A stretch of 64,000 bases of DNA from IMG/VR virus record IMGVR_UViG_3300027751_000009, positions 1-64,000 of that record; one strand, 5' to 3'. A program made the position numbers and the translations under genes. Positions 12,155-30,800 of the stretch are shown here, one piece after another. The notes under the pieces are model-generated. The model was not told the DNA's origin, made no database searches, and saw only the letters and a program-made list of their open reading frames with translations. Numbering within the stretch: the stretch's first letter is position 1; each line of letters begins with the position of its first letter. The stretch is from a virus. Its lineage: Duplodnaviria > Caudoviricetes.

Positions 12155-12614
12155 TGTTGGTATAGATTATTTCTATGAGAAATTTAAGAAAGGAAAACAC
12201 TTCTTTCCTAAACATTTCTTTTTTGGGTTAAAGACTTTAAAGAAGAAAGTACCTGTAGATGAGAAATTACATATGCGCATTGTTAAAACGTATTTAGATA
12301 TTTATTTTAAAGATTTCTACAAGAGTAAAGAGCCTTTTTACTTTCCATTATCAGGAGAGATAGTAAAAGTTAAAGGAGCTAACTTTCTAAGAAAAAAATC
12401 AGAGAGTGTTGTTACAGATGTTATTAATTGGGTATGGTATTTAAGACCAGCTTTTAATTACTTTAGTAACATTAAGATAATAAAATTAAGAGGGAACTCA
12501 AAAATAACATCACTAGAGAAACAATACAAAGAAGATAATGATGTAGCTTTATTAATGGACACCTCAAAATTTTTAGAGCAATTGAATTTAAACAATAAAC
12601 TATACATACAATGA
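12129..12614 (+). CDS. Basic protein, possible divergent IHF/HU-like DNA-binding protein
   Basis: Lys-rich; helix followed by FYFPLSGEIVKV; crAss-like phages carry IHF-like genes in this block. Confidence 0.4.
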   Translation: MIKAKYSNNVGIDYFYEKFKKGKHFFPKHFFFGLKTLKKKVPVDEKLHMRIVKTYLDIYFKDFYKSKEPFYFPLSGEIVKVKGANFLRKKSESVVTDVINWVWYLRPAFNYFSNIKIIKLRGNSKITSLEKQYKEDNDVALLMDTSKFLEQLNLNNKLYIQ

Positions 12615-14089
12615 CAAGCGGAATCGTATATTTTGAAGAGATTGTAGAAAACATCAAAGATGCTACTGGCTATGGTAACTTACGACCTTATTACAATCGA
12701 ATAAAAAGATTTATATTCAACGTGGAGAATGAAATCGGTTATGGTGGTGTCGTTGTTTTAAAGAAAAAAGAATATACTAAAGGAGACCAATTATATGATG
12801 GAAATCGTTTAATAGTTCCTTTTGATTTTTTATCTGAATGGAGTGCTGGAGATTTATCTTTAGGAGTAGTTCAAGGAAATGTATTACAACTTTATGATAA
12901 CGGTCCTGACAAATTAGACTTCAAATATTTAGGTTTTCTATTAGATGAAAATGGCAATCCGTTTACTACAAGAAACAGACTTAATGCTGTAGTAGCTTAT
13001 GCTGTTTATAGATTATATTCTCAACAAGTATTTATGCGTAAGGGAGCTGCTAATCAATATCAAATGTATCGTGAAGAATATTTTGATAGAGTATTAGAAG
13101 CAAGAGGTGATGATGCTTTCCCAACAGAAGAACAATGGAATCAACTTGGTGCTATTAAAAATGGTGGAGCATTTGAAGCTATGACAAATTGTGGAATGAG
13201 AACTATTTATCAAGGTGTTTATGATCCTTCTGTTTTAAATACTGATGGAGCACAAGAAGAATTAACGTGTGTAACATTCATAGAAGCTATTAGCACTACG
13301 AATATGACCGTTATAGGTGTTATATCTCAATTAACAAAAACATTTATTATAGGTGTATCTAATGGTGATACAATGCTATATGGTAATATATGGGATAAAG
13401 ACACAATGGTTGGTGTATCAAATGGTAAAACAACTATCGCTGATGCTACATTATTAAGTCCTACAGAAGCTACAGGAACAACAATACAGATAAGTGGTAG
13501 TGCTAATGGTAGTTCTAATATTATTGCTTATACAGTTAAAAACAGTAAGCTTGAAGGTCGTAGTATTGCTAATTCTTATGTTCCAGGAACATTATCTCCA
13601 CAAGCAACAATACGTTGTTATACTGGTATATATGAATTTGGAGACCCTCAACATTTGTTAGGTGGTGTTGTACATTATGTTGATGAATATGGAAACAATC
13701 AAGTGAAAGGAAATATATGGCTTAATGAAAGTGTTACTTTCCTTGCTAGATCAATTATAAGTGTTACAGATTGTTACGTATGTGGTAAAACTATTGCAGA
13801 GTCAGTAAATGTTCAATTTATAATTACGATAAATCCAAATGAATTATGGGAAGGACAAAAATTATCAGATTGGTATGTAGATTTTAATACATCTATACAA
13901 AATGGTGTAAGAAAAAGGTTTAATCAATTGCTTTCAGATGCAAGTTCTCCTGATGGAAGTCTACAAGTATATTATATATGCGGTACAAAAATTAATGGAT
14001 ATGCTAAAACATCTATTGCTCCTTTACAATTAATAGGAGCAACTATTATTGTAGATGAAACAAATTCCCCTTGTGACTTTATAACATAG
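12611..14089 (+). CDS. Tail ring-like protein with a C-terminal extension containing SNG repeats
   Basis: N-terminal ~200 aa is ring-like (FLLDENGNPF...AVVAYAVYRL); repeats GVSNG/GSANG at ~13275-13590. Confidence 0.5.
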   Translation: MTSGIVYFEEIVENIKDATGYGNLRPYYNRIKRFIFNVENEIGYGGVVVLKKKEYTKGDQLYDGNRLIVPFDFLSEWSAGDLSLGVVQGNVLQLYDNGPDKLDFKYLGFLLDENGNPFTTRNRLNAVVAYAVYRLYSQQVFMRKGAANQYQMYREEYFDRVLEARGDDAFPTEEQWNQLGAIKNGGAFEAMTNCGMRTIYQGVYDPSVLNTDGAQEELTCVTFIEAISTTNMTVIGVISQLTKTFIIGVSNGDTMLYGNIWDKDTMVGVSNGKTTIADATLLSPTEATGTTIQISGSANGSSNIIAYTVKNSKLEGRSIANSYVPGTLSPQATIRCYTGIYEFGDPQHLLGGVVHYVDEYGNNQVKGNIWLNESVTFLARSIISVTDCYVCGKTIAESVNVQFIITINPNELWEGQKLSDWYVDFNTSIQNGVRKRFNQLLSDASSPDGSLQVYYICGTKINGYAKTSIAPLQLIGATIIVDETNSPCDFIT

Positions 14090-14114
14090 TAAAATTAATT
14101 AAAAATAAAAATAG

Positions 14115-14122
14115 TAAATTTG
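14115..14122 (+). promoter_or_regulatory. Bacteroidota -7 element for the 150-aa gene
   Basis: TAAATTTG in the 14090-14155 gap. Confidence 0.55.
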
Positions 14123-14155
14123 AATATTAATAATAATCCTTAAATTTTTTAAATC

Positions 14156-14608
14156 ATGAGTAAATCAAATTCATTCGAAACACAGTTGTTACAACATTTG
14201 TTCAACAACACATCTATCGCCAATGTAGGTGATGCTACAGGATTGCCTGCAGCAGCAGCACCTGGAAACCTTTATGTAAGATTGTACACTTCTGCCGTAG
14301 TTGTAGATGATGCTACTATCGGTACTGAATGTGCATACACAGGGTATGTAGCAAGAGGTGTAGCCGTACCACGTACAGCTGGTGGTTGGACCGTTGCAGG
14401 AAATAACGCTTCTAATACAGCAGCAGTTACTTTTGGTGCTTGTTCAGCTGGTTCTGAAACAGTACGTTACTTTGCTATCTGGAAGGACAATACAACTACA
14501 GCAGATGCTCAACGTTTGTATTGGGGTCAGTTAACTTCTGACTTAGCTGTTAGTGCTGGTATCACACCTGAATTTGCTATTGGAGCATTAGATGTGAACG
14601 AGGACTAA
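14156..14608 (+). CDS. Abundant small virion protein of a widespread phage 'tail-fibre'-annotated family
   Basis: MSKSNSFETQLLQHLFNN...LYVRLYT...YFAIW...LYWGQL...PEFAIGALDVNED pattern; high-expression codons; own promoter and terminator. Confidence 0.65.
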   Translation: MSKSNSFETQLLQHLFNNTSIANVGDATGLPAAAAPGNLYVRLYTSAVVVDDATIGTECAYTGYVARGVAVPRTAGGWTVAGNNASNTAAVTFGACSAGSETVRYFAIWKDNTTTADAQRLYWGQLTSDLAVSAGITPEFAIGALDVNED

Positions 14609-14627
14609 ACCTTGTAATCTTATTACT

Positions 14628-14668
14628 AAAGCTGACCTCAATGTGCTACCTTGGGGTTGGCTTTTTTT
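14628..14668 (+). terminator. Rho-independent terminator
   Basis: AGCTGACCTCAA / TTGGGGTTGGCT 12-bp stem with G-U pairs, 9-nt loop, T7 tract. Confidence 0.75.
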
Positions 14669-14688
14669 AAACTTTTCAATATTGGTTT

Positions 14689-17600
14689 ATGGCTATATTA
14701 ACAAAATTTGCATCAGCGTTTACACTAACAACTGGGTTTAATGATAACTTCACTAATCCACAAAATGCGTATGCAACAGATGGAGTTTTTGCCACTAATA
14801 CAGATAGTAAACCGAGAAACAGAGAATTTGCTACGAATTGGAGAGGTTTTGATTTTTCAGCTATTCCAACGGGATCAGTAATAAATTATGTTACGATTAC
14901 AAATTGGGTAAAAATATCCTCAGCTAATACTTCAGGGCAATGGCGTAGTTCTGTTTGGGCTGATGTTACGGTTGCAGCAGCTTTAACAGCAGGGGTAACT
15001 GGTGCTATTGGAGATAATCAACAAGTGTTTCCTACTACAAGCACAACTCTTGCGAATTGGAATTATAATATGCCTACTCTTCCAACATTAGCACAATTAA
15101 AAGGAGCTAATTTTGGAGTAAGAGTTCAAGCGGCACAAGGTGGTAATGGAACGATTTATACCTATTCAATAGATTCGATTTCTATAACCGTTGATTATAC
15201 GCCACCTAATTTTAAGCCAACAATAGTTTTAAATACACCAGCTAACTCAGCTATAGGGCAAAGCCTAACCCCAAAATTAGAATTTACGGGTTCTGATGTA
15301 GATTTAGATACTTTAGAATATGAAGTTCAGATTGATACTGTTAATACATTTGACAGTCAAGGTTCTACACCTTTAATAAATGCCTTATCTTCTGTACCCG
15401 ATGCAGGTTTTTTAAATACTGTTAATGGTGGAGATACGCATCCGTTTAATAATAATGAGAAAATAAGTTATACGGTTCAAAGTGCTAATAAATTAACCGC
15501 AGTAACACAACACTATTGGAGAGCAAGAGCATTTGATGGTATTGATTGGAGTGATTGGAGTGCCTTTAGAAGTTTTACTACCCTTAATAATAGATTAATA
15601 GGTTTATCCTCTTCTGCAATAACAGTCACAGGTAATTTAACTGTTCAAGTAAGTGGGGAAATTTCTGGTAATACAAATAAGAGGTTAATTTATACTTATG
15701 ATTTCGATGGGAGTGATGCTACCGCACTTGATGCTGATGGGGTTTGGACTGACGAAATAAATATACAAGATGGGAGTCTTGCTACTTATGGTTCTACATC
15801 TACTGAAGGTAGTAATACTCTTAATAATGTTAAAATTGAGGGTACAAATGCACCTTTATTAGCTATTCCTATTGATTATGTAGCAGCAAGAATGGATGTA
15901 GAAATAGATTCATTAGGAATGGATTCTACGGATAACTACATATTAAATACACCTACAGGTGGTTGGACTTGGGCTAAAATTCAAGCATTAGAAGTTATTC
16001 TATGGAAAAGTAATGTAATCACTTATACCAATATCCGTAGTGAAATTTATACTGATGGCTTAGGAGAAAAAGTATCACCTACTTATCTTACTCTAATAAA
16101 GATAGGAACAGTAGCTAAAGTATATAGAACTCAAATTGTAGTTGCTACTTTTGAAGAGATCGTATCTGGAACTACAACTACAGGTATTTTAACGGAAGCT
16201 GAAAATAGTGGAGCTCTTAGAGGTGTTATAAATAATGTTACCACTACAGTAGGTATTTTAAAAGGTAAGGCAAATTTAATAGGTGTTATTAATAGTTCTA
16301 CTACTACAACGGTTACTTCTATAACTTTAAAAATTTATGTAGCTTCTAATGGTATTGCTACAGTTACAGGAGTTATTCATGCATATGCAAAAGCTTTTGG
16401 TGTATCAAATGGTGTTACTACAACCGTTGGTGTTATATTAGGTTACGCTAAAATATTTGGTATTTCTGATGTTATAGTATCTACACAAGGTATTTTAAGA
16501 GGTATAGCTAAAATGAATGGCGCTTCTAATACTTCTTCAACTACAGAAGGGATATTGGCTAATGGAGTTATCATACAGCCTATTGATGGAATTATAAATG
16601 GCATTGCTACGACTAATGCTATTTTAACAGCTAAAGGGATTGTACAAGCTGTATCTAATGTTGCTTTAACTGTTAGTGGTGTACTAAATGCAAGAGGTTA
16701 TTTAGTTGGTGCAATCAATACATCTACTAATCTTACAGCTATACTTTTAGCAAAGGGAAAGCTGGTTGGTTCTGCCGATGGTTTAGGTTCTTGTGCAGGA
16801 CTTCTAAATTCTAACCTACAAGGGAGTGTTATCGTTAATACAACGACTAACACTTTTGGTATTTTAACAGGTGATGGTGCACTTGTTGGTTCTTCAAATG
16901 CAACTAATCAACTTATAGGTTTACTTTCTTCTTCACTTCAAGCTGTAGGAACTACCAATGGTACTACAACAATTTCTGGAATATTACAAGCAAAAGGGGA
17001 GTTGAATGGGTTGAGTTTCAACCAATCAACCGAAGAGGGTATCTTAAATGCTATCGGACAATGTATTGGACAATCTATTGGACAGTGTACGATAGAAGGC
17101 TTATTAGTATCTAATATTATTTTTGGTACTGCTAATGGTAGTACTACTATAAGTGGTCTTATTTCACAAATAGTAAGTATTAGTGCTGTTAGTAATAATA
17201 CGGCTTCAACATCAGGTTTACTAAATTCAAATCTTCAAGGTTCTGTAGTTGTCAATACAACTACAATAACCTTCGGTATATTAACTGCAAGTGGTTCACT
17301 TATAAGTGAAATTACATCAGTAACAACATTACAAGGTTTATTAAATGCTATAACGCAAATTCATGCTGAATCCAACGGTCTGACGACTTCTGTTGGTGTA
17401 TTGCTTGGTAAAGCGAGTTTGAGTGCAAGCGTTAATAGTTCATCGTCAGTATCAGCAACATTAAATGGATTAGGAGTTAATGAAGGAACGAGTCAAGGTG
17501 CCACTTTGATTTCTGGAGTACTCTTAGCAAAAGGATCACTGAACGCAACTATTAACGCCACTGCCTCAACAACTGCTACTATCGGTAGTGGTGCTATGTC

Positions 17601-18618
17601 AGCTACCTCAAATGGTAGTAGTTTATTATCAGGGTTACTAAACTCTAATTTACAAGGCTCTGTAGTGGTTAATACTACTACGATTACAACAGCTACATTA
17701 ACAGGTTTAGGACTACTTGAAAGCGTTACCAACGCTTTTGCGTATGTAGAAGGAATTATAAGTTCATTCGCTTTTATAATTGGAGAGAGCAATGGTCAGG
17801 CAACAACAGAAGGGATACTTACAAGTAATGCTATAAATGGAAACTCTTATGGTAGCACTACAACAAATGGTATTCTTACTGCTAAAGGAAATTTAAACGG
17901 AGAAATAAATACGTTAAGTATAGTTACTGCTATTCTTAATGCACTATCAAATACAATAGGTACTTCTAATGGATTAACAACGATAACCTCAATACTTAAA
18001 GGTAAAGGATTATTATTAGGTATATCGAATGGTGTTACTACGACCAGTGCTTCTATAAAGTCTATAGGAGCATTGGAGGGTAGTAGTTCATCACTAACAA
18101 TTTTATTAGGTTTCTTAGAAGGAGTAGGCTCAATAGCTGGTAGTTCCAATGGACAGGCCTCAACAGAAGGTATTCTTATTAGCGATGCTATGGCTGGGAT
18201 TGCTAATGGAACAGCTACAACACAAGGAATACTATCAGCTATAGGCTTATTATCAGGAGAGAGTAATGGTGTTACAGAACTGATTGCAGGACTATATCAA
18301 ACAAACCCTATTTTCGGAACGATTGATGGAGATACTATATTGATAGGTATCTTAACGCAATCTACAGCTCTTTCAGGCACTTCTAATGGACTTTCTATTG
18401 TAAGTGGAATACTATTAGGTAAACGAGGTTTAGACGTTAAATGCTTCTATGAAGTGCATTATGTAGACCACCAATATTTGATTAAATATATTAATGTTAA
18501 TTTTATAGTGCAATATTTGAAAGTTGAATATCTCACAAAATATAAGATTACTAATTTTGTAGTACAATATCTAACCGAAAAATATAACTCAAAATATAAA
18601 TGCGATAAAAATGGATAA
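14689..18618 (+). CDS. Fibre-like virion protein: beta-sandwich and Ig/FN3-like domains plus a long 20-aa repeat array
   Basis: FN3-like segment (YEVQID...YWRARAFDG..WSDWS..RSFTT); Gly/Ser/Thr-rich repeats over aa ~490-1247; Tyr-periodic C-terminus. Confidence 0.7.
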   Translation: MAILTKFASAFTLTTGFNDNFTNPQNAYATDGVFATNTDSKPRNREFATNWRGFDFSAIPTGSVINYVTITNWVKISSANTSGQWRSSVWADVTVAAALTAGVTGAIGDNQQVFPTTSTTLANWNYNMPTLPTLAQLKGANFGVRVQAAQGGNGTIYTYSIDSISITVDYTPPNFKPTIVLNTPANSAIGQSLTPKLEFTGSDVDLDTLEYEVQIDTVNTFDSQGSTPLINALSSVPDAGFLNTVNGGDTHPFNNNEKISYTVQSANKLTAVTQHYWRARAFDGIDWSDWSAFRSFTTLNNRLIGLSSSAITVTGNLTVQVSGEISGNTNKRLIYTYDFDGSDATALDADGVWTDEINIQDGSLATYGSTSTEGSNTLNNVKIEGTNAPLLAIPIDYVAARMDVEIDSLGMDSTDNYILNTPTGGWTWAKIQALEVILWKSNVITYTNIRSEIYTDGLGEKVSPTYLTLIKIGTVAKVYRTQIVVATFEEIVSGTTTTGILTEAENSGALRGVINNVTTTVGILKGKANLIGVINSSTTTTVTSITLKIYVASNGIATVTGVIHAYAKAFGVSNGVTTTVGVILGYAKIFGISDVIVSTQGILRGIAKMNGASNTSSTTEGILANGVIIQPIDGIINGIATTNAILTAKGIVQAVSNVALTVSGVLNARGYLVGAINTSTNLTAILLAKGKLVGSADGLGSCAGLLNSNLQGSVIVNTTTNTFGILTGDGALVGSSNATNQLIGLLSSSLQAVGTTNGTTTISGILQAKGELNGLSFNQSTEEGILNAIGQCIGQSIGQCTIEGLLVSNIIFGTANGSTTISGLISQIVSISAVSNNTASTSGLLNSNLQGSVVVNTTTITFGILTASGSLISEITSVTTLQGLLNAITQIHAESNGLTTSVGVLLGKASLSASVNSSSSVSATLNGLGVNEGTSQGATLISGVLLAKGSLNATINATASTTATIGSGAMSATSNGSSLLSGLLNSNLQGSVVVNTTTITTATLTGLGLLESVTNAFAYVEGIISSFAFIIGESNGQATTEGILTSNAINGNSYGSTTTNGILTAKGNLNGEINTLSIVTAILNALSNTIGTSNGLTTITSILKGKGLLLGISNGVTTTSASIKSIGALEGSSSSLTILLGFLEGVGSIAGSSNGQASTEGILISDAMAGIANGTATTQGILSAIGLLSGESNGVTELIAGLYQTNPIFGTIDGDTILIGILTQSTALSGTSNGLSIVSGILLGKRGLDVKCFYEVHYVDHQYLIKYINVNFIVQYLKVEYLTKYKITNFVVQYLTEKYNSKYKCDKNG
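16160..18430 (+). repeat. Degenerate ~20-aa coding repeat array (about 35-40 units) with a 139-aa super-period
   Basis: Units such as AKAFGVSNGVTTTVGVILGY; LNSNLQGSV block starts at 16804, 17221 and 17638. Confidence 0.85.
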
Positions 18619-18973
18619 GAATAAAATCAAAAGAATAGATCGTGATACCAGCAAATTGAATTTTGTAATACGTTTTCCAAAAGGAAAGACTTATACAGAT
18701 ATTCAGGATATCATATTTTTGGTAAAAGAAACAGATGCTACTGCATTGGAAAACGCTTTAATTACAAAGCTGATGTCTAATTCAGAAATAGAATTGGTAG
18801 CACCTGAATCAGCATTAGTAAGCTTTACTACGAATGATTACGACCCTTTAGAAATAGCGACTCTTTATAGAGCTGCTTTATTCTGTAAGTGGAATGATAC
18901 AGATGATTTTGATGAAAATGTAGAAAGGCTATTTGACTTTGAAATAACACAAAACTTTCATAATAATAATTAA
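18611..18973 (+). CDS. BppU-N-like tail/fibre adaptor protein
   Basis: 120 aa; pattern FLVKE...ALITK...V.F...D...L....Y resembles BppU N-terminal domains. Confidence 0.45.
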   Translation: MDKNKIKRIDRDTSKLNFVIRFPKGKTYTDIQDIIFLVKETDATALENALITKLMSNSEIELVAPESALVSFTTNDYDPLEIATLYRAALFCKWNDTDDFDENVERLFDFEITQNFHNNN

Positions 18974-18975
18974 AA

Positions 18976-19212
18976 ATGACAGAGTACCTAAAAGATATTA
19001 ATGGTAAAATCAGCATCAAAAGAATTTGGGCTAATAGGCTTATTTGGATTGGTGTAGCGATGAATATCGTTTATTTTATCTTATGGTGCCACGCTTATTA
19101 TAGCGAAAAGAAATTGCTTGAATATCCAACAGAAATGATTTGGGGAATGTTAGGAAGTGGATTAGGTGCCATTGGTTTAACTGTAGTAGAACAAAAAACA
19201 AATATAACGTAG
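18976..19212 (+). CDS. Holin candidate with two transmembrane helices
   Basis: 78 aa with two hydrophobic segments, upstream of the endolysin candidate. Confidence 0.55.
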   Translation: MTEYLKDINGKISIKRIWANRLIWIGVAMNIVYFILWCHAYYSEKKLLEYPTEMIWGMLGSGLGAIGLTVVEQKTNIT

Positions 19213-19236
19213 TAGTAATAATTAATCATCCCAATA

Positions 19237-19551
19237 ATGACACAAGAAAAAAAACAACAATTGAAAGAGATATTGCCAACATGGCTAACATTAGGAAACA
19301 TGATTTTGTTAATAGGCTTATTCTATGCAAGAGGACAAACAGATGAAGGTATGAGAAAAGACATTATTAATAATTCGAAAGAAATCATAGAAATTAGTCG
19401 TAAAATAGAAACGCATAAAAGCTCTGCTTATGAACATAGGTCTATGGATGATTTAATGATTAAATTTGTTCCGAGAGAGGAATTAAAAGCGACACTTGAT
19501 AATATTGTAAAATCCCAAGACGAGATAAAGCAATTAATTAAAGAAAAATAA
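19237..19551 (+). CDS. Single-TM membrane protein of the lysis cassette
   Basis: N-terminal TM (WLTLGNMILLIGLFYA) followed by a coiled coil. Confidence 0.5.
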   Translation: MTQEKKQQLKEILPTWLTLGNMILLIGLFYARGQTDEGMRKDIINNSKEIIEISRKIETHKSSAYEHRSMDDLMIKFVPREELKATLDNIVKSQDEIKQLIKEK

Positions 19552-19557
19552 TAAGTT

Positions 19558-19998
19558 ATGAAACCAATCGTGAAAGTACATAGATTTTGGCAAGATGAAA
19601 ATCAAACATCAGGAAATATTACTGTTATTAGTGCTGATGATAATTTTCCATTATATGCTTCTTTAGGTTTAGAAAGAGGCTGGAAAAATAATCAGAACAA
19701 TATTAGTTGTATTCCTATTGGAACATATCAATTAAAGTTAGAATACTCACCGAGATTTAAAACAGACCTTTGGGAAGTTAAAGGTGTTCCGGGAAGAGCT
19801 GAATGCAAATTTCACGCAAGTAATTACTGGTTTCAATTAAACGGTTGCATAGCACCAGGTTTAAGATATAAAAATATGAACAACGACAATTATCGTGATG
19901 TTACTAATAGTTCTGATTCATTAAGAGCATTTCACGAAGCACTAAAACCCCATACGGAAGCAATTTTAATTATAACAGGAGAACACAAAATTAAATAG
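19558..19998 (+). CDS. DUF5675-family protein (L,D-transpeptidase-like), putative endolysin
   Basis: LERGWKNN..NISCIP.G.Y...SPRF...WEV.GVPGR...FH..N....GCI signature. Confidence 0.75.
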   Translation: MKPIVKVHRFWQDENQTSGNITVISADDNFPLYASLGLERGWKNNQNNISCIPIGTYQLKLEYSPRFKTDLWEVKGVPGRAECKFHASNYWFQLNGCIAPGLRYKNMNNDNYRDVTNSSDSLRAFHEALKPHTEAILIITGEHKIK

Positions 19999-19999
19999 T

Positions 20000-20101
20000 A
20001 TGAAAGAGGTTAAACGTTATTTAGTAAACTTAACAAGAGTAGATAAAGTTATTCTCATAATCTCTTTAATGTTATTAATATTTTTAATAAAAGAAATATG
20101 A
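20000..20101 (+). CDS. 33-aa single-TM protein, not in the ORF track
   Basis: MKEVKRYLVNLTRVDKVILIISLMLLIFLIKEI; its TGA overlaps the next ATG (ATGA). Confidence 0.55.
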   Translation: MKEVKRYLVNLTRVDKVILIISLMLLIFLIKEI

Positions 20102-20782: not shown

Positions 20783-20783
20783 G

Positions 20784-21362
20784 ATGGCAATAATCAAATT
20801 TAAAATAACAAGACTACCTAAACGAGCTATTCTAAAAGTAGATGCTGTTCCAATGGTATTAGGTCAAGAATATACGATACCTCAACAAGCTCAAATGACT
20901 TGTGATGTTTCAGACTTAGGTGTTCCTTATGATGATTTTGGTTATAAATTAGGTAACGATAAAAATATTTGGAGTGCTGAATATAAGTGTACTGTAAATG
21001 CAAATGTAGATACAGGTGCTTTCATTATCACTAATGAAGTCTTTGATGTTACTATCAATAATACAACAGCTATTCCTATTACGTTAGAGGACCAAGTAGA
21101 CAGAATAACTATAGTTTCTCATAGTCCAAAATACGGAGAGCTTCTTATCAATGGTAGTCAAGCTATATTGGGTAAAACATATATGAGATATAATTATTTC
21201 AACCTACAATTTAGCTCTAATGCTAATTTGGACACGCAAAATATAGAGTCAATATTATCATATACAAAAGGAAATAAAAATGGTACCTCATCAGCGTGTA
21301 CTTATACTTTTAAGACCACATCGAATTTATCAGGAAGTATTAATGGAATAGCAACAACATAA
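20784..21362 (+). CDS. Putative tail/fibre structural protein
   Basis: 192 aa, beta-rich; ends in a partial SNG-type repeat (LSGSINGIATT). Confidence 0.5.
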   Translation: MAIIKFKITRLPKRAILKVDAVPMVLGQEYTIPQQAQMTCDVSDLGVPYDDFGYKLGNDKNIWSAEYKCTVNANVDTGAFIITNEVFDVTINNTTAIPITLEDQVDRITIVSHSPKYGELLINGSQAILGKTYMRYNYFNLQFSSNANLDTQNIESILSYTKGNKNGTSSACTYTFKTTSNLSGSINGIATT

Positions 21363-21856: not shown

Positions 21857-21866
21857 ATAAAAGATT

Positions 21867-24800
21867 ATGGAATTAAATTTCGAACAATTACATCTGTTTG
21901 TAGAGGGAATGAAAAGTTCCAGAGAACAAAATGCAGAAGAGCCAAGTTCTTATGAATATGGTTTAAATGGTAGATTATATTCTGAAAATGGGAAGCTATC
22001 TTATTCTTCTATAAAAGGAACTGTTCCTATTTATAACAATCCTAAAATCATAAAGTATTTAGGGTTTTATGCTTTTCCTGATGAATTATTGTTACTTGTA
22101 AAGTATGATGAAAATGCTACAGCCAATTTAACATCAGAAATTTCAACACAAATTATAGCAAATGATATTTCTATCAATCTTGATTTTGGAACTACACAAT
22201 ATGTATTCAGTAATGAATTAAGTATAGGCGCTATTGAAAATATAAATCAAGCTACTGTTCAATCTTCTCCACAACCTGTAGAACCATTAACAGAAAATTA
22301 CAATCAATCTGGTGAAATCAAAACGATTGATTTTAACGAGTATTATTTACTAAGTGGTAAAACAGTACCAAATTATCAAATATGCACATTAGGTAACGCT
22401 AATACTATTCCTGAATACAACAAACAGTACTCTGATGCTTTTATAGTTTTAAAGAATGATGGTTATCATGCTTTTAAAGGTAGATTAGCCTGGAAAGGAA
22501 ATCTAAATTGGGATATAAATCGTAAGATAACAACAGTAGGAATTGATGAGGGTATTCATTACAAGCGTGTATATTTTACAGATAACTTAAATCCTTTACG
22601 TGTTATCAATTTAAAAGACAAAAATTTATTCTATAGAACATCAGAAGAATTTAATGTATTACAAGATGCTACATTATTACAACCTAAAGTAAGAAAAATT
22701 ACTGAAGGAGGTTCTATAAAGGCTATGTCTGTACAATATGCGTATCGTTTAATGACTGACAATGGACAAGTGACTTCTTTTTCTCCTTTTTCAGAACTTA
22801 TAAAAATAGTAAAAGATGAAGATGGTTATGATTTTGCAGGTGGTGCAATTGATAGTTTAACCTCTAAACGTGTAGAATTAGATTGCCCTATAATTTCAAC
22901 ACTATATTCAAAAGTTCAATGTATAGCTATAGAATTTAAAACTGATAGCACACCTACGTCTTTTAGAAATTTAGGAATACAAAATGTTGATAGTGTTGTT
23001 TCTTTTATCCACAGTGGAAATGAAAGTGAATTAGAAGATATTTTAACTATAGAAGAAGTTATTGAAACTAAACACATCTGGACATATTGTAATGATATAA
23101 CTATTAAAAATAACAAATTAATAGCAGCAGGACTTAGAAACAAACCTTATTCTCTTCAAGAAAAATATGTAGAAGATTTATTCTTATTTAAAGGTTGGGA
23201 TGAATTAGGTGCATCTCATGATAATGCTTTAATAAATCCAACTCCTACTACATATAAATATTTTGATCCTACATATACTGGGGATATGATATATGTAGAG
23301 AAACAATTATATACTCGTTTCCTATTTTTTGGAAATGTAACATTGACTTTAAATAACAAGTTAAATCCAAATATTAGAGAGTCTATAACTTTTAAAAGCA
23401 GTGCTGACCAATATATAGATTATACATTAGATGTTGGGGCTTGGTTAAAAGGATTAAGTGCTGGAAAGTTAGAATTGTTTCCAAATCTAAAAATAGAACA
23501 AATAGATTACTCTATTTTATTTAGTCCTATAGACGAGCTTATAAAAACTAATATGTCTAACTATTATTTTACAACTTCTGTAACACAAGTTATTATAGAT
23601 TTTGAAAATCAATATAGCATATTAGACACAGCTGTTAATCCTTCAGCTTTAGTTTTTGGAGCTCAAAGTATTGGCTTTAATCAAGGAACAGGTATAAGAG
23701 TTAGTTTCGAACAGCAGGAAGAAGCTATTTTAAATAAGTCACCAGAATTATATGATGGTGGAGAGCTTTTAAAATTACAAACACCATCTTTAAAAAAGAC
23801 TTTTGTAAAAGATGAAATATACCGTTTAGGAATACAATGCTATAAATCAGGCTCACCTCTATTTACAATCGTATGTGGAGATATTAAAACACCAGCTGTA
23901 GGAGAGTTAGATTATAAGAACCAATCTGATGATGGAAATCAATTATTCGTACATAGACTTGAATTAAAAGTTGAGGTAAGAATACCATGTGAATTTAAAG
24001 ACTATATAGACTCTTATCAGATTGTTTATGTGGAACGTACAGAAAACAATAGGACTATTTTAGCACAAGGATTAGCTGGTCCACTTATTAGATTAGCAAC
24101 TATAAACCACCCTTCTGTTAATGGTACAGCATATGCGCCTGATGTATATGATAAATGGACACTTCCTTTCAATGGTGGGCCTTTATATTCAGTTAATGGC
24201 TTATTGACTTATACTATGTTAGGTGAGAATTGGGATGATTTTGAAGAATGGTCAGATGATTGGGGTGATACTTCAGATATACGCCAAAGAGTTTTCACAC
24301 GTGAAATTGTAAATAGAAGAATGTTTTATTTTGATTCTCCTGATGCTATTTATTCTAAAATTTCAGACCGTAATTTTAAAAATGGAAAGATAGAAGTCTT
24401 AGGTAGAGTGAATACAGACCATACAGGACATCTTATTAGAAGTCGTTTTCCTGGAGATGAAATTCACCCAGCTTATGTTCTTGACGTAGGCACTGGCATT
24501 GGACTTACATTTGTCAGTGTGCCTCCTGGATTTCAAGAAAGTGAAATTTATAAATCATTGGCTTATTCTAAAAAGATAGGTTATACAAATGTTAGTGGTA
24601 CAAGTTCATCTAAACCATATCACGTCAATGTAAGTGTATTCTCACAATTTACATTAGATAAAAAAACAATAGAAATAGATAAGACTACAGATTTATTAGC
24701 TAAAGGTGAAGTGTTACCATCAGCGATATTAGGAACTTCATTTGATATTTCAAATATGGCTTTAACATTATTTGCTCAAAATGCTTATAACAGTTCACTA

Positions 24801-27800
24801 TTTTTAAGTGCTGTTTATCATGATAGGTTACAGCGGATATTATGTGGTTCACATAAATCCTCAAATAATAGTGAAGGATATCCATCTATATTTATTCGTG
24901 CTAAAGAAGATGTTTTTACAGATGATTTTATAGGTGCGCATAGATACAATCCAATAAAATCTAAACCTCATACTTGGGAAGGTGTAAGTAAGCTTGTAGA
25001 TATTAATGGAGATTTAACAACTGAAGGTGTTCCCTCTACTGATGCACATGCTATTATCAATATAAAAATGGATAATGAAGGTAGCATATATGGAGGAAGA
25101 ACAAAGTATGCTTTTTCTAAAAATGTATTTATACCATTGAGTGAAGTTATTCCATTAAAAGGAGCTACAGGAGATAACCAATCACAAAAATTTAATGTGC
25201 AAGGAGATTTTTATGTATCATTATTTTTAAGAACAAAAAATGACTACTCAAATGCTTTACCTCCAGAAAAACACGATATGCATCAAAACAATAATTATGT
25301 TGACGAGCATTATTTTGCTTCAATAGATGATTGGAACAGAGGTGGTGCATGGGCTTATGCTGTAGTTTTAGAAACAGAAATAGAAAGTAGATTAGCAGAT
25401 AGCTATCGTTTTTATAGAGCATCAGGTGGTGTTAATTTTGATTTAGGTATTAATGAATTTATCAATTCAGCATACTATAAGAAAAATGATTTAAGAAAAT
25501 ACATACCGGTTCCATTTAATTTTAAAGATGATCCTTTAATGGTAAGTAGTATATCAGCATCTAAAACAAAATTAACAGGAGATTATGTTGATGCTTGGAC
25601 TACATTCTTACTATATGAGTTCTATGAATTAGAAAAAAGTAAAGGTATCATTACCAATATAACAAATTGGAAAGATGAAATCTTTGCTATTCAAGAATAT
25701 GAAACCAATCAAATAAATGTTGATACTACTAATTTTGTAACAACTAATGAAGGTCAAAGTGTAGCTATACAAAAAGGAACAGGCTCTACTTTTACAAATC
25801 ATAAGAAAGTAAGTGATTTTGGTACTTCTATTCGTAGAGCTTTAGCAGAGGGAGAATTTGGGTTTAGCTTTATAGATGAGAAGAACAAAGCTTTCGTAAA
25901 ATTCGGAGAAAGTCTTAGTTTACCTTTAGAGATACAATTAAAACTACAAGAATTATTCCAATACAATAAGATTATAGATACAGAAGGTTACTATGATGTA
26001 AAATATAAAGAGACAAACATTCGTATTCGTACAGAAAGTGGTCTTACTTATCTACTATCATACAATGAACTTTTACAAAAATTCAATGGTTGGTTAGCTT
26101 ATGATAATGACATTTATATCACTTATGACAAACGTGTGTTTGCACCATCTTGTCAAATCAGAACTGTTGTTTTAGAATTGCCAGAAATTTCAAGTAATCT
26201 ACAAGTGGAAATGCAAGTAGGAAAATATTCTGAATATCAGATAACTGTTGCTGAAGAAGTTTCAGGAAAAGGAACAGCACCAAAACCAGTTAGCTATACA
26301 GCTACGAATTTACCTGATGGATTAAATATCAATATCAATACAGGATTGATTTATGGAGTTCCTACTACAGTCGGTACTTACAATGTTCCTATTGTCGTAA
26401 CAAATAGCGTAGGAGTTTCACAAGTAATATTGATAGTTATTGTAAACCCAGCTACATTAGTTGGAGAAACTAATAGTAGTTCAGAAGTTATAGGAGTACT
26501 TAGTTATTTAGAAACTGTAAATATTGAAGGTATTTCAAATGGTCAAGCTGATGTTTATGGTAAGCTAAAAGCTAAAGGTTTATTAGAGGTTACTATTAAC
26601 GGTATAGCTACCACAAATGGAACTCTTATAGGTAGAGCATATTTCGATGAAGATATAAATGGTAGTAGTACTGTCACAGGTCAAATACAAGCCATAGGAA
26701 GTCTTTTGGGAATATCTAATGGCGTAGCATCAGTTGTAGGAGAAATCACTGGTAAGAGCTTTATTTACGGTATTTCAAATAATGTAGCAACAGTAGTAGG
26801 AGTATTATTACAACCATTAGAATTTACAGGTTATGCAACTACATATGATATTACTAACGATTGTAGAATATTAGTAACTGGTACATTCTCTCAATATGGT
26901 ACACCACATTCAAAACAAACTGTTAATGATATTGCAATTATTGATAGCTGTGGTAATTTAGATGAAACATTCAATGCGAATATAGGTCTTGGGTTCAATG
27001 ACTTTATGTATTGGGGTTATGGTTCTGCAATAAGTCACGATGGCTCTATATTTGTTGGTGGTTCATTTACTACCTTTAATGGAGTTAGCACAAATAGACT
27101 TGTCAAATTAAATCCTGATGGAACAAGAGATTGGTCTTTTGATATAGGAACAGGTTTCAATAAAGCCTCTGCTATACCACTTATAAATAAAGATGGTAGT
27201 GTATTCTATTTCGGTAGATTCGATACTTACAAAGGTGCGTGGAGAGGTCAAATAGTCAAACTAACTCCTAATGGAACAATAGACTATTCATTCAGTGGTT
27301 ACTTTACGAGCAATATCCCTATACAGTTAATGGATGTTGGATATAACCAAATGATAGCTCATGGATATACTGTTGGATATAATGGTAGCTATATCCCTCA
27401 TATCGTTAGAATAGATAAAACAACAGGTCAACGAGATTGGACTTTTAATGTGCCAGTAGGACCTAACATTGCCGGAGAAGGAAAAGTAATGTTCAGTTTT
27501 GTCGATGGAGAAAAAATTATAATGCTTAGTCAATTCTTTACTCAATGGGATAATTTACCGGCTGGTGGTATTGTAAGGTTAAATAGAAATGGTTCAAGAG
27601 ATGAAACATTTGTTACAGGTACAGGTTTCACTGGTGGAGTAGTTTATAAAGGTGCTGTATTTGAAGGAAAATATATTATATCTGGTACGTTTACTGCATA
27701 CAATGGAACACCTTGTCCTCGATTGGTACGATTAAATCAAGATGGTTCATTAGATAATACATTCAATTGGAATAATAATTATGGTGATTATGGACCTTAC

Positions 27801-30800
27801 AATATGGTTGTAATGGGTGAGAACATTTATGTTTCTGAAGCAAGAGGTGCTGGAACAGCACAGTATCTGTTAGTTGTAGATAGAGATGGTAATGCTAAGA
27901 GAATGAAGAAAAACCCTAATAAGTGTATTCCTTTCTCTTGTGGTAGTAGATTAAAAGGTGTTATTTATGCAAAAACATATCCTTATGGTATTTTAGGTGT
28001 TAGACCTAACGACCAAATAATAGGAGTAAGTAATGGTAGTGCTGTAGTAAGTGCTGATATAATTGACATGCCTAATCCAAACTTAATGGTAGGAGCAAGT
28101 AATAGTAGTTCTACAGCAGAATTATATGTAATTACTTTTGATACAACTTGGAATGTTAATTTGAGTGGTGGTCAGTCTTCTCCATCCGGTACATTATATT
28201 TTCCTCTAAATATTGAAGAAACTTATGATTTCATTATAGAATGGGGTGATGGAACATCAGATAGACTTACTAATGCTGGTCAAGCTGATAGACATCATAC
28301 TTATGTTAGTACTGGAACAAGTATTTATAATGTAAAAATAAATGGTATTATTCCTTTTCATTTTATTTTTGCAGCTTATGGTGTAACTTATACTGATGCA
28401 GCAAAATTAATATCTGTTGATAGATTTGGTCCTATGAAATTTTCTCAATTTGGAAGAACATTTAACGGTTGTATGAATTTAACAACTTTAGCTGATGATC
28501 CTAATTTTGAAACATTTACAAGTGGTGAACTTGTATTTCAAGATAATGAAAAATTAGTATCAGATATTACTAATTGGGATACGAGTAGAGTAACTACTAT
28601 GAAAGGAATGTTTTCATACACCTCTAATTTCAATCAAGATATTACTAATTGGGATACAAGTAATGTAACGAATATGGAAGATATGTTCTTAAGTTGTTAT
28701 GATTTTAGTATAAATCTTTTTGGGTTAGATGTTAGTAAGGTTACAAATACTAACCACATGTTTTACAAATGTTTTAAATTTAATGGTACAGTACCAGCAT
28801 TTGGTCCTCTTTTGCAGAGTGCAATTCGAATGTTTTATGACTGTACAATATTCAACCAACCTTTAAGTCATTTAGATGTAAGTGGATTGCAAAACGCAAA
28901 TAGTATGTTTCTAGCTTGTACAACTTTTAATCAAGATATTAGCGGTTGGAGACCTCAAATTACAAATGCAAATAGTATGTTTAATTATACTCCATTTTTC
29001 AATTCAGATCTTAATGATTGGGATATGAGTAATTGTGAAGAAATGACCTCAATGTTTAGTGGTTCAGCCTTTAATAAACCATTAAATCTTTGGAATACAA
29101 GTAGTTTAAAACTTACTCGATTTATGTTTGACTATAATCAGGTCTTTAATCAAGATATTAGTAGTTGGGATATGAGAAAAGTAGAAGACGCAGAAGCCAT
29201 GTTTCAATATGCTAATGCTTTTAATCAAGACCTTAGTGGTTGGCAGTTTGAAAATTTAAAACATGCAGGCTTTATGGCTGGTAACAAAGGATATACTGAT
29301 GAATGGAATTTCTCTAAATTAGAGACTGTTAGACGCTTCTTTGGAGATGTTTATAAAGGAGACCTAAATAAATTTGATATAAGTAATATAACAGACTTTA
29401 CTTGGATTTTTGGAGGAAGTAATATTAATAAAGATTTTTCAAGTTGGGATGTTAGTCATGTAACTACAATCAATTTTTTTGCAGGAAATAACGCTGCTTT
29501 CAATCAACCTTTAAATCATTGGGATGTTAGTAATGTTACAGATATGAGTCAAGCATTTTGGAATACACCATCTTTTAAACAAGATATTAGTGACTGGAAT
29601 ATTAGTAATGTTACAAATATATCTACATTCTTTGGTGGTACTACTAATTACCCTACACATCTTGTTGATGCTTGTATAATAAAATGGAGTCAATTACCTT
29701 CTTTAAAAATCACTAGCATAACATTTGGAATTGGGAAGCATTCTGAAGCTTCGGTAGCTGCAAAAGCATTACTATTAAGTAATGGTGTAAATGTTACTAC
29801 TGGTGGTTTGATGGCTGGAAAATGGTGTATAGGGAAATCTATAAAAGCTAAAGCTACAACAATAGGCTCTTTAAGACAAACAGTATCTATGGCCGCTACT
29901 TCAAACGGATTAGCTACTATAGATAACACTATGATAAGATTAGGAATATTATCAATACAAGGAATTTCTAATGGTTTAAGTACAAGTTCACTTGCTACAA
30001 ATCCTTTTATCCTTGAAGTTACAACTACTACACAAAACCAAAATGTGATATTGCCTCTTGCTAAAACTTATAATTATGCTACTAATACAAGTCTTGTAGT
30101 TGAGTCAAATGTTGATTGGGGTGATGGTGTTGAACAATATATTGAGTCTAATACTTCTCTTAATAAATCTCACATTTATGCTGAACCAGGAGTTTATCAA
30201 GTTAAACTAACAGGAAGAATAGATGCTTTATATCCACTTAGTTATGGAAATACTAATAGTGCCTTTACTGATATAATTCAATGGGGAACTAATGAATTTA
30301 AAGAATTAACAGGAGCATTTAAAGGTTATCCAAATTTAAAATCTACAGGAGTAGGACCAATATTTTTTTCAGGAGAACATCTTACAGGTTTATTTCAAGA
30401 TTCTACTTTAATAACTTCTGTATCTGAAAATTTATTTACTAAATGTCCAAATTTAAAATCAAATGCTTTTAAACAAACATTTAAAAATTGTAGATTAACA
30501 ACAATTCATGAAGACTTATTTAAATCTAATACTGGAGTTTATAATTCAGCTTTTTATGAAACTTTTAAAGATAATAAGTTAATTTCAATACCTGAAAATT
30601 TATTCAGATATAATACAGAAGTACATGATTATGCATTCTATGGTACTTTTCAAAATAATGAAATAACAACAATACCAGTTGATTTATTTAAGTATAATAC
30701 TAAAGCATTAAATTATACTTTTACACATACGTTTAATGGTAATTCACTTTTAACAGTAATTCCAGATAATATTTTCACGAATTTCAAAGGTACATTAGCT

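What the first reader, a model, noticed from the sequence alone, without database searches (positions are those of the whole stretch)
12611..29995. A ~20-aa SNG repeat shared by four virion proteins plus a separately over-expressed 150-aa protein: possible scaffold-and-subunit fibre system
Seen: the repeat [LIM]xGxSNGx[AST]TxxGxL occurs in the ring-like protein (~13275-13590), about 35-40 times in the 1309-aa protein (16160-18430), as a terminal half-unit in 20784-21362, and as three clusters between domains of the giant tail protein (~26455-26815, ~27950-28120, ~29830-29995). The 150-aa gene sits among them with its own promoter (14115) and terminator (14628) and uses capsid-like high-expression codons, whereas the repeat gene lies downstream of that terminator. 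Inference: each repeat is an alternating beta-strand motif that is unlikely to fold alone. It could be a docking or donor strand for one copy of the 150-aa protein, building rigid stalks of programmable length that hold adhesin domains away from the virion. An alternative is a self-folding beta-solenoid spacer. I am not aware of a description of such an arrangement.
Basis: partly seen in the sequence, partly recalled or inferred. Interest (0 to 1): 0.8.

Follow-up and report, generated by a model that had tools for sequence, protein, structure and literature searches.

The report
Rope-and-bead fibres in a crAss-like phage
A crAss-like phage encodes one small, probably abundant "bead" protein of the GP4 gp80 / Bas63 whisker family, plus a 20-residue docking repeat spread over four tail proteins (38 copies in one); this most likely builds the bead-on-a-rope fibres recently solved in a few other phages, here on several scaffolds at once.

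Summary
A strict 20-aa repeat (HMM consensus SISGTSNGSTTISGILLAKG) occurs only in the 492-aa, 1309-aa and muzzle proteins, with a terminal half-unit in the 192-aa protein. The 1309-aa protein has 38 units. The 150-aa gene is followed by a strong terminator.

The 150-aa protein is not an orphan. It matches Pfam PF23140 (GP4 fibre I gp80). Its AlphaFold model (pLDDT 96) superposes best on GP4 gp80, then on the Bas63 and Sf14 whiskers. In solved virions, dimers of these subunits thread onto an extended "rope" that completes their beta-sandwiches.

Support:
- The repeat folded alone gets pLDDT 56.
- Every informative contig carrying SNG-type repeat proteins also carries a Gp80 gene, where looked up just upstream on the same strand, including in myophage-like contigs.
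- GP4's gene next to gp80 has the same 20-aa period.
- Identical repeat peptides in different proteins use different codons.

Binding was not tested, and the repeat shows no sequence similarity to other ropes.

Verdict: new variant of a known kind, the first seen in a crAss-like phage. It has one bead gene, several rope-bearing proteins, and ropes placed between muzzle adhesin domains.

The parts
12611..14089 (+). p492: tail protein two genes downstream of Ring-2 (a 161-aa ORF, 12129-12614, lies between). The N-terminal ~225 aa are possibly a Ring-1/adaptor-like domain; this is a lead only.
   Evidence: ORF. No Pfam match. Atlas look-alikes SU10_adaptor and CrAss_Ring_1 at 0.94-0.95. Ring-2 gene at 11456-12154.
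13343..13546 (+). Rope cluster in p492: 3 strong SNG units (residues 245-312), with a possible degenerate unit just before.
   Evidence: HMM units of 19.7, 14.8 and 10.5 bits.
14115..14122 (+). TAAATTTG, a Bacteroidota-type -7 box-like word 33 nt upstream of the 150-aa gene's ATG. It is a consensus match only.
   Evidence: the motif is not enriched in the window.
14156..14608 (+). p150: Gp80-family fibre/whisker subunit, the 'bead'. It is the only copy in the 78.9-kb genome.
   Evidence: Pfam PF23140, E 2.2e-14, 54 bits against a cut-off of 27. AF2 pLDDT 95.9. Foldseek top hit 8jou_a. VIA Z 10.8 / 9.9 / 9.7 to GP4 gp80, the Bas63 whisker and the Sf14 whisker. Single copy.
14628..14668 (+). Intrinsic terminator between the bead gene and the rope gene.
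   Evidence: Hairpin plus U-run, dG -17.6 kcal/mol, z -5.1, 0 of 200 shuffles as stable. Similar hairpins follow the Gp80 gene in L008, L009/L010, L013, L017, L053 and L054.
14689..16152 (+). p1309 N-terminal globular region (residues 1-488), presumed to be the distal binding domains.
   Evidence: No repeat and no Pfam match. Only weak, patchy similarity to relatives.
16153..18429 (+). p1309 rope: 38 units of 20 aa (residues 489-1247), with a higher-order period of ~139 aa.
   Evidence: AF2 of residues 480-900 alone gives mean pLDDT 56, none >=70, and two short strands per unit.
18430..18618 (+). p1309 C-terminal tail: Cys-bracketed and rich in Tyr/Val strands. The same kind of tail is shared by rope proteins of crAss-like relatives, so it is presumed to be the virion anchor.
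   Evidence: C-terminal comparison; L008 E 9e-9, and the same pattern in L013, L014 and L052 but not in the myophage-like L053-L055.
21324..21359 (+). C-terminal half-unit of p192 (NLSGSINGIATT).
   Evidence: HMM 6.7 bits. INGIATT is identical in p1309 and the muzzle protein, with synonymous codon differences.
21867..31673 (+). Muzzle protein: a crAss_MUZ domain followed by Ig (He_PIG), DUF5122 propeller and DUF285 modules.
   Evidence: Pfam.
26457..26819 (+). Muzzle rope cluster 1: 5 strong units + 1 weak (residues 1531-1651), between the Ig domain and the propeller.
28014..28133 (+). Muzzle rope cluster 2: 1 strong unit + 1 weak (residues 2050-2089).
29766..30011 (+). Muzzle rope cluster 3: 2 strong units (residues 2674-2715), plus 2 degenerate units upstream seen only by eye.

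Best explanation
This is a rope-and-bead ('chain-like') fibre system of the kind solved in podophages GP4 and A1002 and in the myophages Bas63 and Sf14.

The 150-aa protein is the bead. It is a Gp80/whisker-fold subunit with an N-terminal helix, through which it dimerises in the solved relatives, and a beta-sandwich that in those relatives is incomplete on its own.

The 20-aa SNG unit is the rope. It is an extended segment of two short strands per unit that does not fold alone. It runs through the grooves of successive bead subunits and completes their sheets (beta-augmentation). The likely ratio is one unit per subunit, so two units per dimer.

The 1309-aa protein is then a long fibre. Its conserved C-terminal tail anchors it on the tail, about 19 bead dimers coat the 38-unit rope, and the N-terminal globular domains sit at the far end. 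Shorter rope clusters in the muzzle protein (between its Ig, propeller and DUF285 modules), in p492 and at the end of p192 would carry one to three dimers each, stiffening and spacing those modules.

Because each rope protein needs many beads, the bead gene is followed by a terminator, so the rope gene downstream is transcribed less.

SHOWN: the family and fold of the bead; the anatomy and uniqueness of the repeat; the lack of a confident autonomous fold; the co-occurrence; the terminator.

INFERRED: the binding itself, the stoichiometry, occupancy of the short clusters, and which end is anchored.
For: 1. p150 matches Pfam PF23140 'Podophage GP4 fiber I protein gp80' at 54 bits against a cut-off of 27. 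Its model (pLDDT 95.9) matches 8jou_a best (Foldseek E 2.6e-4, TM 0.60/0.65; VIA Z 10.8). Next come the Bas63 whisker 9mt4_K (Z 9.9, 105 of 107 residues, rmsd 2.5) and Sf14 9c39_K (Z 9.7).

2. [quoted passage not shown] Entry 8JOU holds ten gp80 chains.

3. The repeat region folded alone has mean pLDDT 56, no residue >=70, and two 5-9-residue strands per unit.

3a. The gene next to GP4 gp80 (gp79) has a significant 20-aa period, about 11 units, 0 of 500 shuffles as strong.

4. Reverse co-occurrence. Twelve database proteins carry SNG-type repeats. Five sit on contigs of the same length as contigs carrying Gp80 homologues. Five of the seven looked up have a PF23140 gene 21-1,408 nt upstream on the same strand (L052-L056). 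The other two contigs are too short to tell. Three of these loci are myophage-like (tail tube and tape-measure genes), so the pair travels as a module.

5. Forward co-occurrence. In 38 non-redundant Gp80 loci, ORFs with a 19-22 or 38-42-aa period are enriched within 3 kb of the Gp80 gene (17 of 183 against 3 of 240; odds ratio 8.1, p 1e-4). Examples include Microcystis phage Mae-JY04, whose unit GxSxGxxTxxG has the same Gly spacing as the window's.

6. The whole 78.9-kb genome has one Gp80 gene, and no periodic candidate other than the SNG repeat.

7. INGIATT, LLGISNGV and IIGVSNG are identical between different proteins. INGIATT, the one checked at DNA level, is encoded with different codons in each protein, which points to selection on the peptide rather than recent copying.

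8. There is a strong terminator between the bead and rope genes, seen again in several relatives.
Against: 2. The SNG profile shows no detectable similarity to GP4 gp79 or to the Microcystis repeat by hhalign, and none to any PDB chain.

3. That gp79 is the GP4 rope is my inference. Its sequence is not in the PDB, and the GP4 paper could not be read.

4. Low pLDDT for a monomer is also what an obligate homotrimeric fibre shaft would give, and the alignment used was shallow and repeat-confounded.

5. Rope length per subunit seems shorter in A1002 (about 330 aa for 22 subunits) and in Bas63 than 20 aa.

6. Only 16 of 38 Gp80 loci show a periodic neighbour by my crude detector.

7. Some Gp80 neighbours (L001, L002) have a non-repetitive conserved protein downstream instead.

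8. Units at the edges of the short clusters are degenerate, so the 'even number' argument is weak.

9. No natural Gp80-rope fusion was found.
Confidence: 0.68

Rival explanations
1. Beads on one rope only. p150 dimers coat only the adjacent 1309-aa protein. The short SNG clusters in the muzzle protein, p492 and p192 would then be unoccupied flexible linkers, or leftovers of module shuffling between fibre genes in which the shared repeat served as a recombination joint.
For: In the crAss-like relative L052 only the long rope protein carries SNG units, and its 1563-aa muzzle protein has none. So the muzzle clusters came in with a lineage-specific adhesin extension. Edge units in the short clusters are degenerate. 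Solved examples have a single rope-bearing protein per fibre type (PMC13730344, PMC12609058).
Against: The strong units in the muzzle protein and p492 score as high as those in p1309 (12-20 bits). The identical INGIATT heptapeptide shared with p1309 is encoded by different codons, which argues for continued selection on the peptide rather than recent recombination scars. Relatives L006 and L013 also have several SNG-bearing proteins beside one Gp80 gene. Rope segments embedded in tail structural proteins are known (A1002 nozzle-rope, Bas63 collar).
Confidence: 0.17
2. Autonomous fibre shaft. The SNG repeat folds by itself or as a homotrimer into a beta-solenoid, triple beta-helix or beta-spiral spacer, as in many tail-fibre shafts. 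p150 would be a separate whisker or decoration protein that binds elsewhere.
For: The repeat is predicted as all-beta with regular strand-turn-strand units. Many phage fibre shafts are repetitive and fold only as trimers, which a monomer prediction would also score low. There is no sequence similarity to other rope candidates.
Against: No residue reaches pLDDT 70. The genome offers p150 no other periodic rope candidate. SNG-type proteins were always found with a Gp80 gene, directly upstream in the five contigs looked up, even in unrelated phage backbones. Two-unit clusters between globular domains of a protein that is hexameric in crAss001 are hard to reconcile with a trimeric shaft. The 20-aa period equals that of the gene next to GP4 gp80.
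Confidence: 0.1
3. Capsid or neck decoration. p150 is a high-copy head or neck protein whose genomic neighbourhood with repeat proteins reflects only shared late-gene organisation.
For: MCP-like codon usage and a gene-specific terminator fit any abundant virion protein. One homologue is annotated 'head protein' in Sphingobium phage Lacusarx. GP4 fibre I leans on the capsid (PMC13730344).
Against: The closest solved relatives are all rope-threaded fibre or whisker subunits. The neighbourhood link holds across different phage backbones and is positional, within 3 kb on the same strand.
Confidence: 0.05

Closest known systems
Ralstonia podophage GP4 fibre I (gp80 dimers on a separately encoded rope; PDB 8JOU; Zheng et al., J Mol Biol 2023)
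   Same: The bead subunit is in the same Pfam family and has the same fold. The rope is a separate gene directly downstream of the bead gene. The candidate rope has a 20-aa period.
   Different: GP4 carries 5 dimers per fibre; here the long rope has 38 units (about 19 dimers if there is one unit per subunit). GP4 has one rope protein; here four proteins carry the motif. Bead identity is only 21%. The ropes share no detectable sequence similarity. The host phage here is crAss-like, not a Gervaisevirus.
Pseudomonas podophage A1002 chain-like fibre (nozzle-rope gp39 with 11 dimers of gp40/gp41; PLoS Biol 2026, PMC13730344)
   Same: The rope is part of a tail-tip structural protein (nozzle there, muzzle here). 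A globular Ig-like domain sits beyond the rope, and the anchor is at the C-terminal end. The beads have the gp80 fold.
   Different: A1002 uses two bead paralogues; this genome has one. A1002 has one continuous rope; here there are three short ropes between different adhesin modules of the muzzle protein, plus a separate 38-unit rope protein.
Bas63 / Sf14 collar-whisker complex (Felixounavirus myophages; Sci Adv 2025, PMC12609058; PDB 9MT4, 9C39)
   Same: The whisker fold matches p150 (Z 9.9 and 9.7). A ring protein at the neck carries a short rope for two dimers. p492, if it is a Ring-1/adaptor homologue with 3-4 units, would be the counterpart.
   Different: The whiskers are about 107 aa with a rope of about 50 aa; here the bead is 150 aa with a regular 20-aa sequence repeat. 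The ring identity of p492 is unproven.
PhiCrAss001 tail fibres and muzzle (Nature 2023, PMC10172136)
   Same: Same virion plan: the crAss_MUZ, Ring-2 and crAss capsid families are detected, and the muzzle sits at the tail tip.
   Different: PhiCrAss001 fibres start from trimeric gp22 on tail hubs, and no Gp80-type bead or rope is described. In the phage collection, the Gp80 search returned no record labelled as crAss-like and the SNG repeat matched no record at all.
Chaperone-usher pili (donor-strand complementation)
   Same: The principle is the same: an incomplete Ig-like sandwich is completed by a strand supplied from another chain.
   Different: In pili each subunit donates its own N-terminal strand to the next subunit. 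Here, as in GP4 and Bas63, one long separate chain supplies all the strands. There is no homology.

Membership tests
Gp80 / whisker fibre subunit (Pfam PF23140) | Sequence match to the family model above Pfam's gathering score | tested here: met
   54.3 bits against a cut-off of 27, E 2.2e-14, model positions 3-127 of 128. Confirmed on genome DNA at 51.3 bits.
Gp80 / whisker fibre subunit (Pfam PF23140) | Fold: an N-terminal helix followed by a small beta-sandwich that superposes on solved gp80 and whisker chains | tested here: met
   AF2 pLDDT 95.9, helix at residues 5-17 followed by strands. 8jou_a Z 10.8 (118 residues aligned, rmsd 3.7); 9mt4_K Z 9.9 (105, rmsd 2.5); 9c39_K Z 9.7. Next unrelated rows have Z <= 7.8.
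Gp80 / whisker fibre subunit (Pfam PF23140) | Forms dimers through the N-terminal helices | not testable with these tools
   Only monomer prediction is available.
Rope-and-bead chain-like fibre (GP4 fibre I, A1002, Bas63 collar-whisker) | An extended partner segment without an autonomous fold that offers serial docking sites | tested here: inconclusive
   38 regular 20-aa units. Folded alone: pLDDT 56, none >=70. This is compatible with a rope, but a homotrimeric shaft would look the same.
Rope-and-bead chain-like fibre (GP4 fibre I, A1002, Bas63 collar-whisker) | Bead and rope genes are linked in the genome and co-inherited | tested here: met
   The rope gene starts 81 nt after the bead gene. 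10 of 10 informative SNG-protein contigs carry Gp80. Near-versus-far enrichment: odds ratio 8.1, p 1e-4.
Rope-and-bead chain-like fibre (GP4 fibre I, A1002, Bas63 collar-whisker) | The rope is borne by, or anchored to, a tail or neck structural protein | tested here: met
   Three clusters lie in a protein with a crAss_MUZ domain. The C-terminal tail of p1309 is conserved among crAss-like relatives. The ring identity of p492 is a lead only.
Rope-and-bead chain-like fibre (GP4 fibre I, A1002, Bas63 collar-whisker) | Sequence similarity of the rope to ropes of solved systems | tested here: not met
   hhalign against GP4 gp79: probability 0.1. PDB profile search: only chance hits. It is not known whether solved ropes resemble one another, so this feature may not define the family.
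Rope-and-bead chain-like fibre (GP4 fibre I, A1002, Bas63 collar-whisker) | Physical beta-augmentation of the bead by the rope | not testable with these tools
   Needs multimer prediction or experiment.
crAss-like phage virion module | Muzzle, ring and crAss-type capsid proteins in conserved order | tested here: met
   crAss_MUZ E 1.4e-63; CrAss_Ring_2 E 1.4e-11; Crass_capsid 26 bits, just under its cut-off; crAss_MUZ_C in the next ORF. The only GenBank phage relative of the muzzle protein is Cellulophaga phage phi14:2.
Self-folding beta-solenoid / triple beta-helix fibre repeat | A confident autonomous repetitive fold, or a match to a known repeat family | tested here: inconclusive
   No Pfam or PHROG match for p1309. 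AF2 monomer of residues 480-900 has low confidence. An oligomeric fold could not be tested.

The most novel reading that the evidence does not exclude
One abundant bead protein serves as a universal sheath for a short sequence code (the 20-aa SNG unit) written into at least four different virion proteins. These are a ~19-dimer fibre (a very rough 50 nm or more, scaling from A1002's ~300 A for 11 dimers), a neck or adaptor ring, and the linkers between every adhesin module of the muzzle protein. The phage could then set the length and stiffness of each appendage simply by the number of units. The bead-rope pair would also move as a cassette between crAss-like podophages and myophages. This would make the rope-and-bead fibre a general, sequence-recognisable building system rather than a curiosity of a few phages.
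Probability: 0.45. Interest if true: 0.72.

Novelty: new variant of a known kind. Interest (0 to 1): 0.56.

Why it matters
crAss-like phages are among the most abundant viruses known, yet their receptor-binding fibres are the least resolved part of the only solved crAss virion.

If this reading is right:
- It gives those appendages in one environmental crAss-like lineage a concrete architecture.
- It provides the first sequence signature for a 'rope'. No curated family covers it, and no Pfam or PHROG model matched any rope candidate tested here. The SNG motif could be used to annotate SNG-type rope proteins next to Gp80 homologues; a first search found 1,199 Gp80 homologues at E <= 1e-5.
- It shows natural variation in fibre length (roughly 8 to 48 units) with a conserved bead. 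That is of practical interest for engineering fibre length and for displaying binding domains on phages.

Tried and rejected
1. Single-sequence PDB searches. p150 returned only chance antibody hits. p1309 returned nothing. p492 returned only chance hits. Fold comparison was needed instead.

2. GP4 gp79 against the PDB, at E up to 10: nothing. Its role as the GP4 rope therefore stays an inference. The GP4 paper is not held.

3. Profile of 40-aa double units against the PDB: only GAPDH chance hits.

4. hhalign of the SNG profile against GP4 gp79, against the Microcystis rope and against a non-repeat control: all non-significant and indistinguishable from one another.

5. Pfam on rope candidates and on separate domains of p492, p1309 and p192, at E up to 10: nothing useful.

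6. tblastn of the repeat region against 50,697 phage records: no match.

7. Search for longer proteins fusing Gp80 to a rope: only two Gp80 proteins with an inserted domain, and no fusion.

8. 'Even number of units per cluster' as a signature of dimers: dropped, because edge units are too degenerate to count objectively.

9. The sigma-70 promoter scan gave fewer hits than shuffles, and the Bacteroidota -7 word is not enriched. The promoter claim stays unproven.

10. ESM Atlas on the p1309 N-terminal region: no usable hit.

11. The ORF upstream of the rope gene on the short contig L057 is not Gp80. That contig is uninformative rather than a counter-example.

Full report
WHAT THE WINDOW IS

The window is 64 kb of a 78.9-kb virus record rated complete, with GC near 31%. 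It has the virion module of a crAss-like phage:
- a weak crAss capsid match at 8139-9914 and Ring-2 at 11456-12154;
- a 3268-aa protein whose first ~1350 residues are a crAss muzzle domain, E 1.4e-63;
- a crAss_MUZ_C domain in the following ORF;
- a 4163-aa ORF further on.

The only GenBank phage with a detectable relative of the muzzle domain is Cellulophaga phage phi14:2. This is therefore a distant, environmental crAss-like lineage.

CHECK OF THE OBSERVATION

The repeat is real and specific.
- GxSNG occurs 13 times in the six-frame translation, all in p492, p1309 and the muzzle protein.
- An HMM from those seeds separates these three ORFs (E 4e-13 to 2e-26) from everything else (best other ORF E 0.85).
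- After iteration it yields 34 units spaced at 20 aa or multiples of 20. The consensus is SISGTSNGSTTISGILLAKG.
- p1309 residues 489-1247 are 38 consecutive units. Autocorrelation at lag 20 is 0.56, against a maximum of -0.17 in 200 shuffles. There is a higher-order period of ~139 aa.
- The muzzle protein has clusters of 5+1, 1+1 and 2(+2) units between its Ig, DUF5122 propeller and DUF285 modules.
- p492 has three strong units.
- p192 ends in a half-unit. It is weak by score, but it contains INGIATT, which is identical in p1309 and the muzzle protein and is encoded there by different codons.

The expression signals are partly confirmed.
- A hairpin plus U-run (dG -17.6 kcal/mol, z -5.1) separates the 150-aa gene from the rope gene.
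- The proposed promoter is only a consensus word.
- The codon-usage resemblance to the capsid gene is present but small.

WHAT THE 150-aa PROTEIN IS

- It matches Pfam PF23140, 'Podophage GP4 fiber I protein gp80', at twice the gathering score.
- It has at least 1,199 homologues at E <= 1e-5 in metagenomes.
- With a 38-sequence alignment AlphaFold gives pLDDT 95.9: an N-terminal helix and a small beta-sandwich.
- Foldseek ranks GP4 gp80 (8jou_a) first, then four whisker chains of Bas63 and one of Sf14.
- VIA-align gives Z 10.8, 9.9 and 9.7 for these, above the next rows at Z <= 7.8.

WHAT THAT FAMILY DOES

[quoted passage not shown] - In GP4, five dimers sit on a separately encoded rope. Entry 8JOU holds ten gp80 chains.

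IS THE SNG REPEAT THE ROPE?

Direct binding could not be computed. The indirect tests were as follows.

(a) Autonomous fold. Residues 480-900 of p1309, folded with homologous repeat regions as the alignment, gave mean pLDDT 56. No residue reached 70. The prediction was two 5-9-residue strands per unit.

(b) Same period next to gp80 in GP4. The gene directly downstream of gp80 (gp79) has a 20-aa period over residues 16-240, about 11 units, and 0 of 500 shuffles were as strong. That would fit ten gp80 subunits. That gp79 is the rope is my inference, because its sequence is not in the PDB.

(c) Reverse co-occurrence. A search with the repeat region found 12 proteins.
- Five lie on contigs whose lengths equal those of contigs with Gp80 homologues.
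- Five of the seven looked up have a PF23140 gene 21-1,408 nt upstream on the same strand.
- The remaining two contigs end within 350 nt of the gene or cover only the gene.
- L053, L054 and L055 carry tail-tube and tape-measure genes (L053 and L054 also a different capsid family). So the pair moves between phage types.

(d) Forward co-occurrence. Among 38 non-redundant Gp80 loci, ORFs with a 19-22 or 38-42-aa period are eight times more frequent within 3 kb of the Gp80 gene than further away (p 1e-4). Printed in register they are Gly-punctuated, Ser/Thr/Ala-rich 20-aa units. The Microcystis phage Mae-JY04 unit GxSxGxxTxxG has the same spacing as the window's GxSNGxxTTxG.

(e) No alternative partner. 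The genome has one Gp80 gene and no other periodic candidate.

(f) Peptide-level selection. Identical 7-8-mers are shared between the different rope-bearing proteins. INGIATT, the one checked at DNA level, is encoded by different codons in each.

Evidence against:
- Profile comparisons show no sequence similarity between the SNG unit and GP4 gp79 or the Microcystis unit, or any PDB chain.
- Low monomer confidence would also fit a trimeric shaft.
- Rope length per subunit appears shorter in A1002 and Bas63.
- Some Gp80 loci show no periodic neighbour.

HOW IT MOST LIKELY WORKS

p150 dimers thread onto SNG units, probably one unit per subunit.

p1309 would be a fibre built as follows:
- a C-terminal tail that is Cys-bracketed and rich in Tyr/Val strands, of a kind shared with crAss-like relatives but not with the myophage-like ones; it is presumably the anchor;
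- about 19 dimers on the rope;
- variable N-terminal domains at the tip.

In the muzzle protein, which is a hexamer in PhiCrAss001, one to three dimers would stiffen each linker between adhesin modules.

In p492, three to four units recall Bas63's two dimers per collar subunit. p492 is possibly a Ring-1/adaptor homologue; this is a lead only.

Rough demand, as an inference: 6 muzzle copies x 8-12 units, plus 12 p492 copies x 3-4 units, plus 38 units per p1309 copy. That is hundreds of beads per virion. It would explain a bead gene with a terminator directly downstream that throttles the rope gene. A similar hairpin follows the Gp80 gene in several relatives, including two myophage-like loci.

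Unit numbers among relatives range from roughly 8 to roughly 48 with a conserved bead. The 'programmable length' idea thus has natural support.

COMPARISON AND NOVELTY

The bead is a member of a known family. The architecture is known from GP4, VP1, A1002, Bas63 and Sf14.

What is new:
- the crAss-like host backbone: nothing of the kind is described for PhiCrAss001, no paper in the library links Crassvirales to these fibres, and the GenBank phage collection gave no crAss-labelled Gp80 hit and no SNG match at all;
- a sharply defined 20-aa rope motif that has no curated family;
- a rope of 38 units, against at most 11 dimers in solved cases;
- one bead gene serving several rope-bearing proteins, including ropes inserted between adhesin modules of the tail-tip protein. 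In the relative L052 only the long rope protein has the motif, so the multi-scaffold state is lineage-specific, although L006 and L013 share it.

I file it as a new variant of a known kind. Interest is moderate to good. The main uncertainty is the untested binding.

Noticed in passing
window 18430-18618; L008, L013, L014, L052 rope-protein C-termini: Rope proteins of crAss-like relatives all end in a ~50-60-aa tail. It is bracketed by Cys residues and made of Tyr/Val-rich strand-like repeats (here ...KCFYEVHYVDHQYLIKY...KYKCDKNG). The myophage-like rope proteins lack it. It may be a disulfide-locked anchor to the crAss tail.
   Followed up: partly
window 16594-16614, 21339-21359, 26595-26615: The heptapeptide INGIATT is identical in p1309, p192 and the muzzle protein, but is encoded with different synonymous codons in each.
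   Followed up: yes
L053, L054, L055 (contigs): The same Gp80 gene plus SNG-type rope gene pair sits in contigs with tail-tube (Phage_T4_gp19 or Phage_tube_2) and tape-measure genes. These are long-tailed phages unrelated to crAss, which suggests a mobile fibre cassette.
   Followed up: partly
window 31699-32958: The ORF after the giant muzzle gene carries the crAss_MUZ_C domain (E 4e-7). The muzzle protein therefore appears split, with the adhesin/rope array at the end of the first part. Other first-stage notes flag the same thing.
   Followed up: no
window 16153-18429: Besides the 20-aa unit, p1309 has a higher-order period of ~139 aa (7 units; autocorrelation 0.57). The segment GLLNSNLQGSV[IV]VNTTT recurs three times, which indicates recent internal expansion.
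   Followed up: partly
L008, L009/L010, L013, L017, L053, L054, just downstream of the Gp80 gene: Terminator-like hairpins with T-runs (dG -12 to -17 kcal/mol) follow the Gp80 gene in several relatives, as in the window. The detector was crude, and other loci showed none.
   Followed up: partly
P0144, P0145: Two Gp80 homologues of 283 and 307 aa carry a ~90-aa domain inserted into the sandwich, apparently near its C-terminal end (judged by eye). This would be a decorated bead variant.
   Followed up: no
L001:8521-9381, L002:8413-9315: In two phages (a Manatee Spring podophage and Pseudanabaena phage PA-SR01) the gene after the Gp80 homologue is a conserved ~290-aa non-repetitive protein (shared PRIYDD motif) instead of a rope. 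This may be a different use of the bead, or a short unrecognised rope.
   Followed up: no
L017:11007-12449: A 481-aa ORF is made of 9-aa SN[AI]G.I..N repeats, a different repeat type from the rope, 3.5 kb from a Gp80 gene.
   Followed up: no
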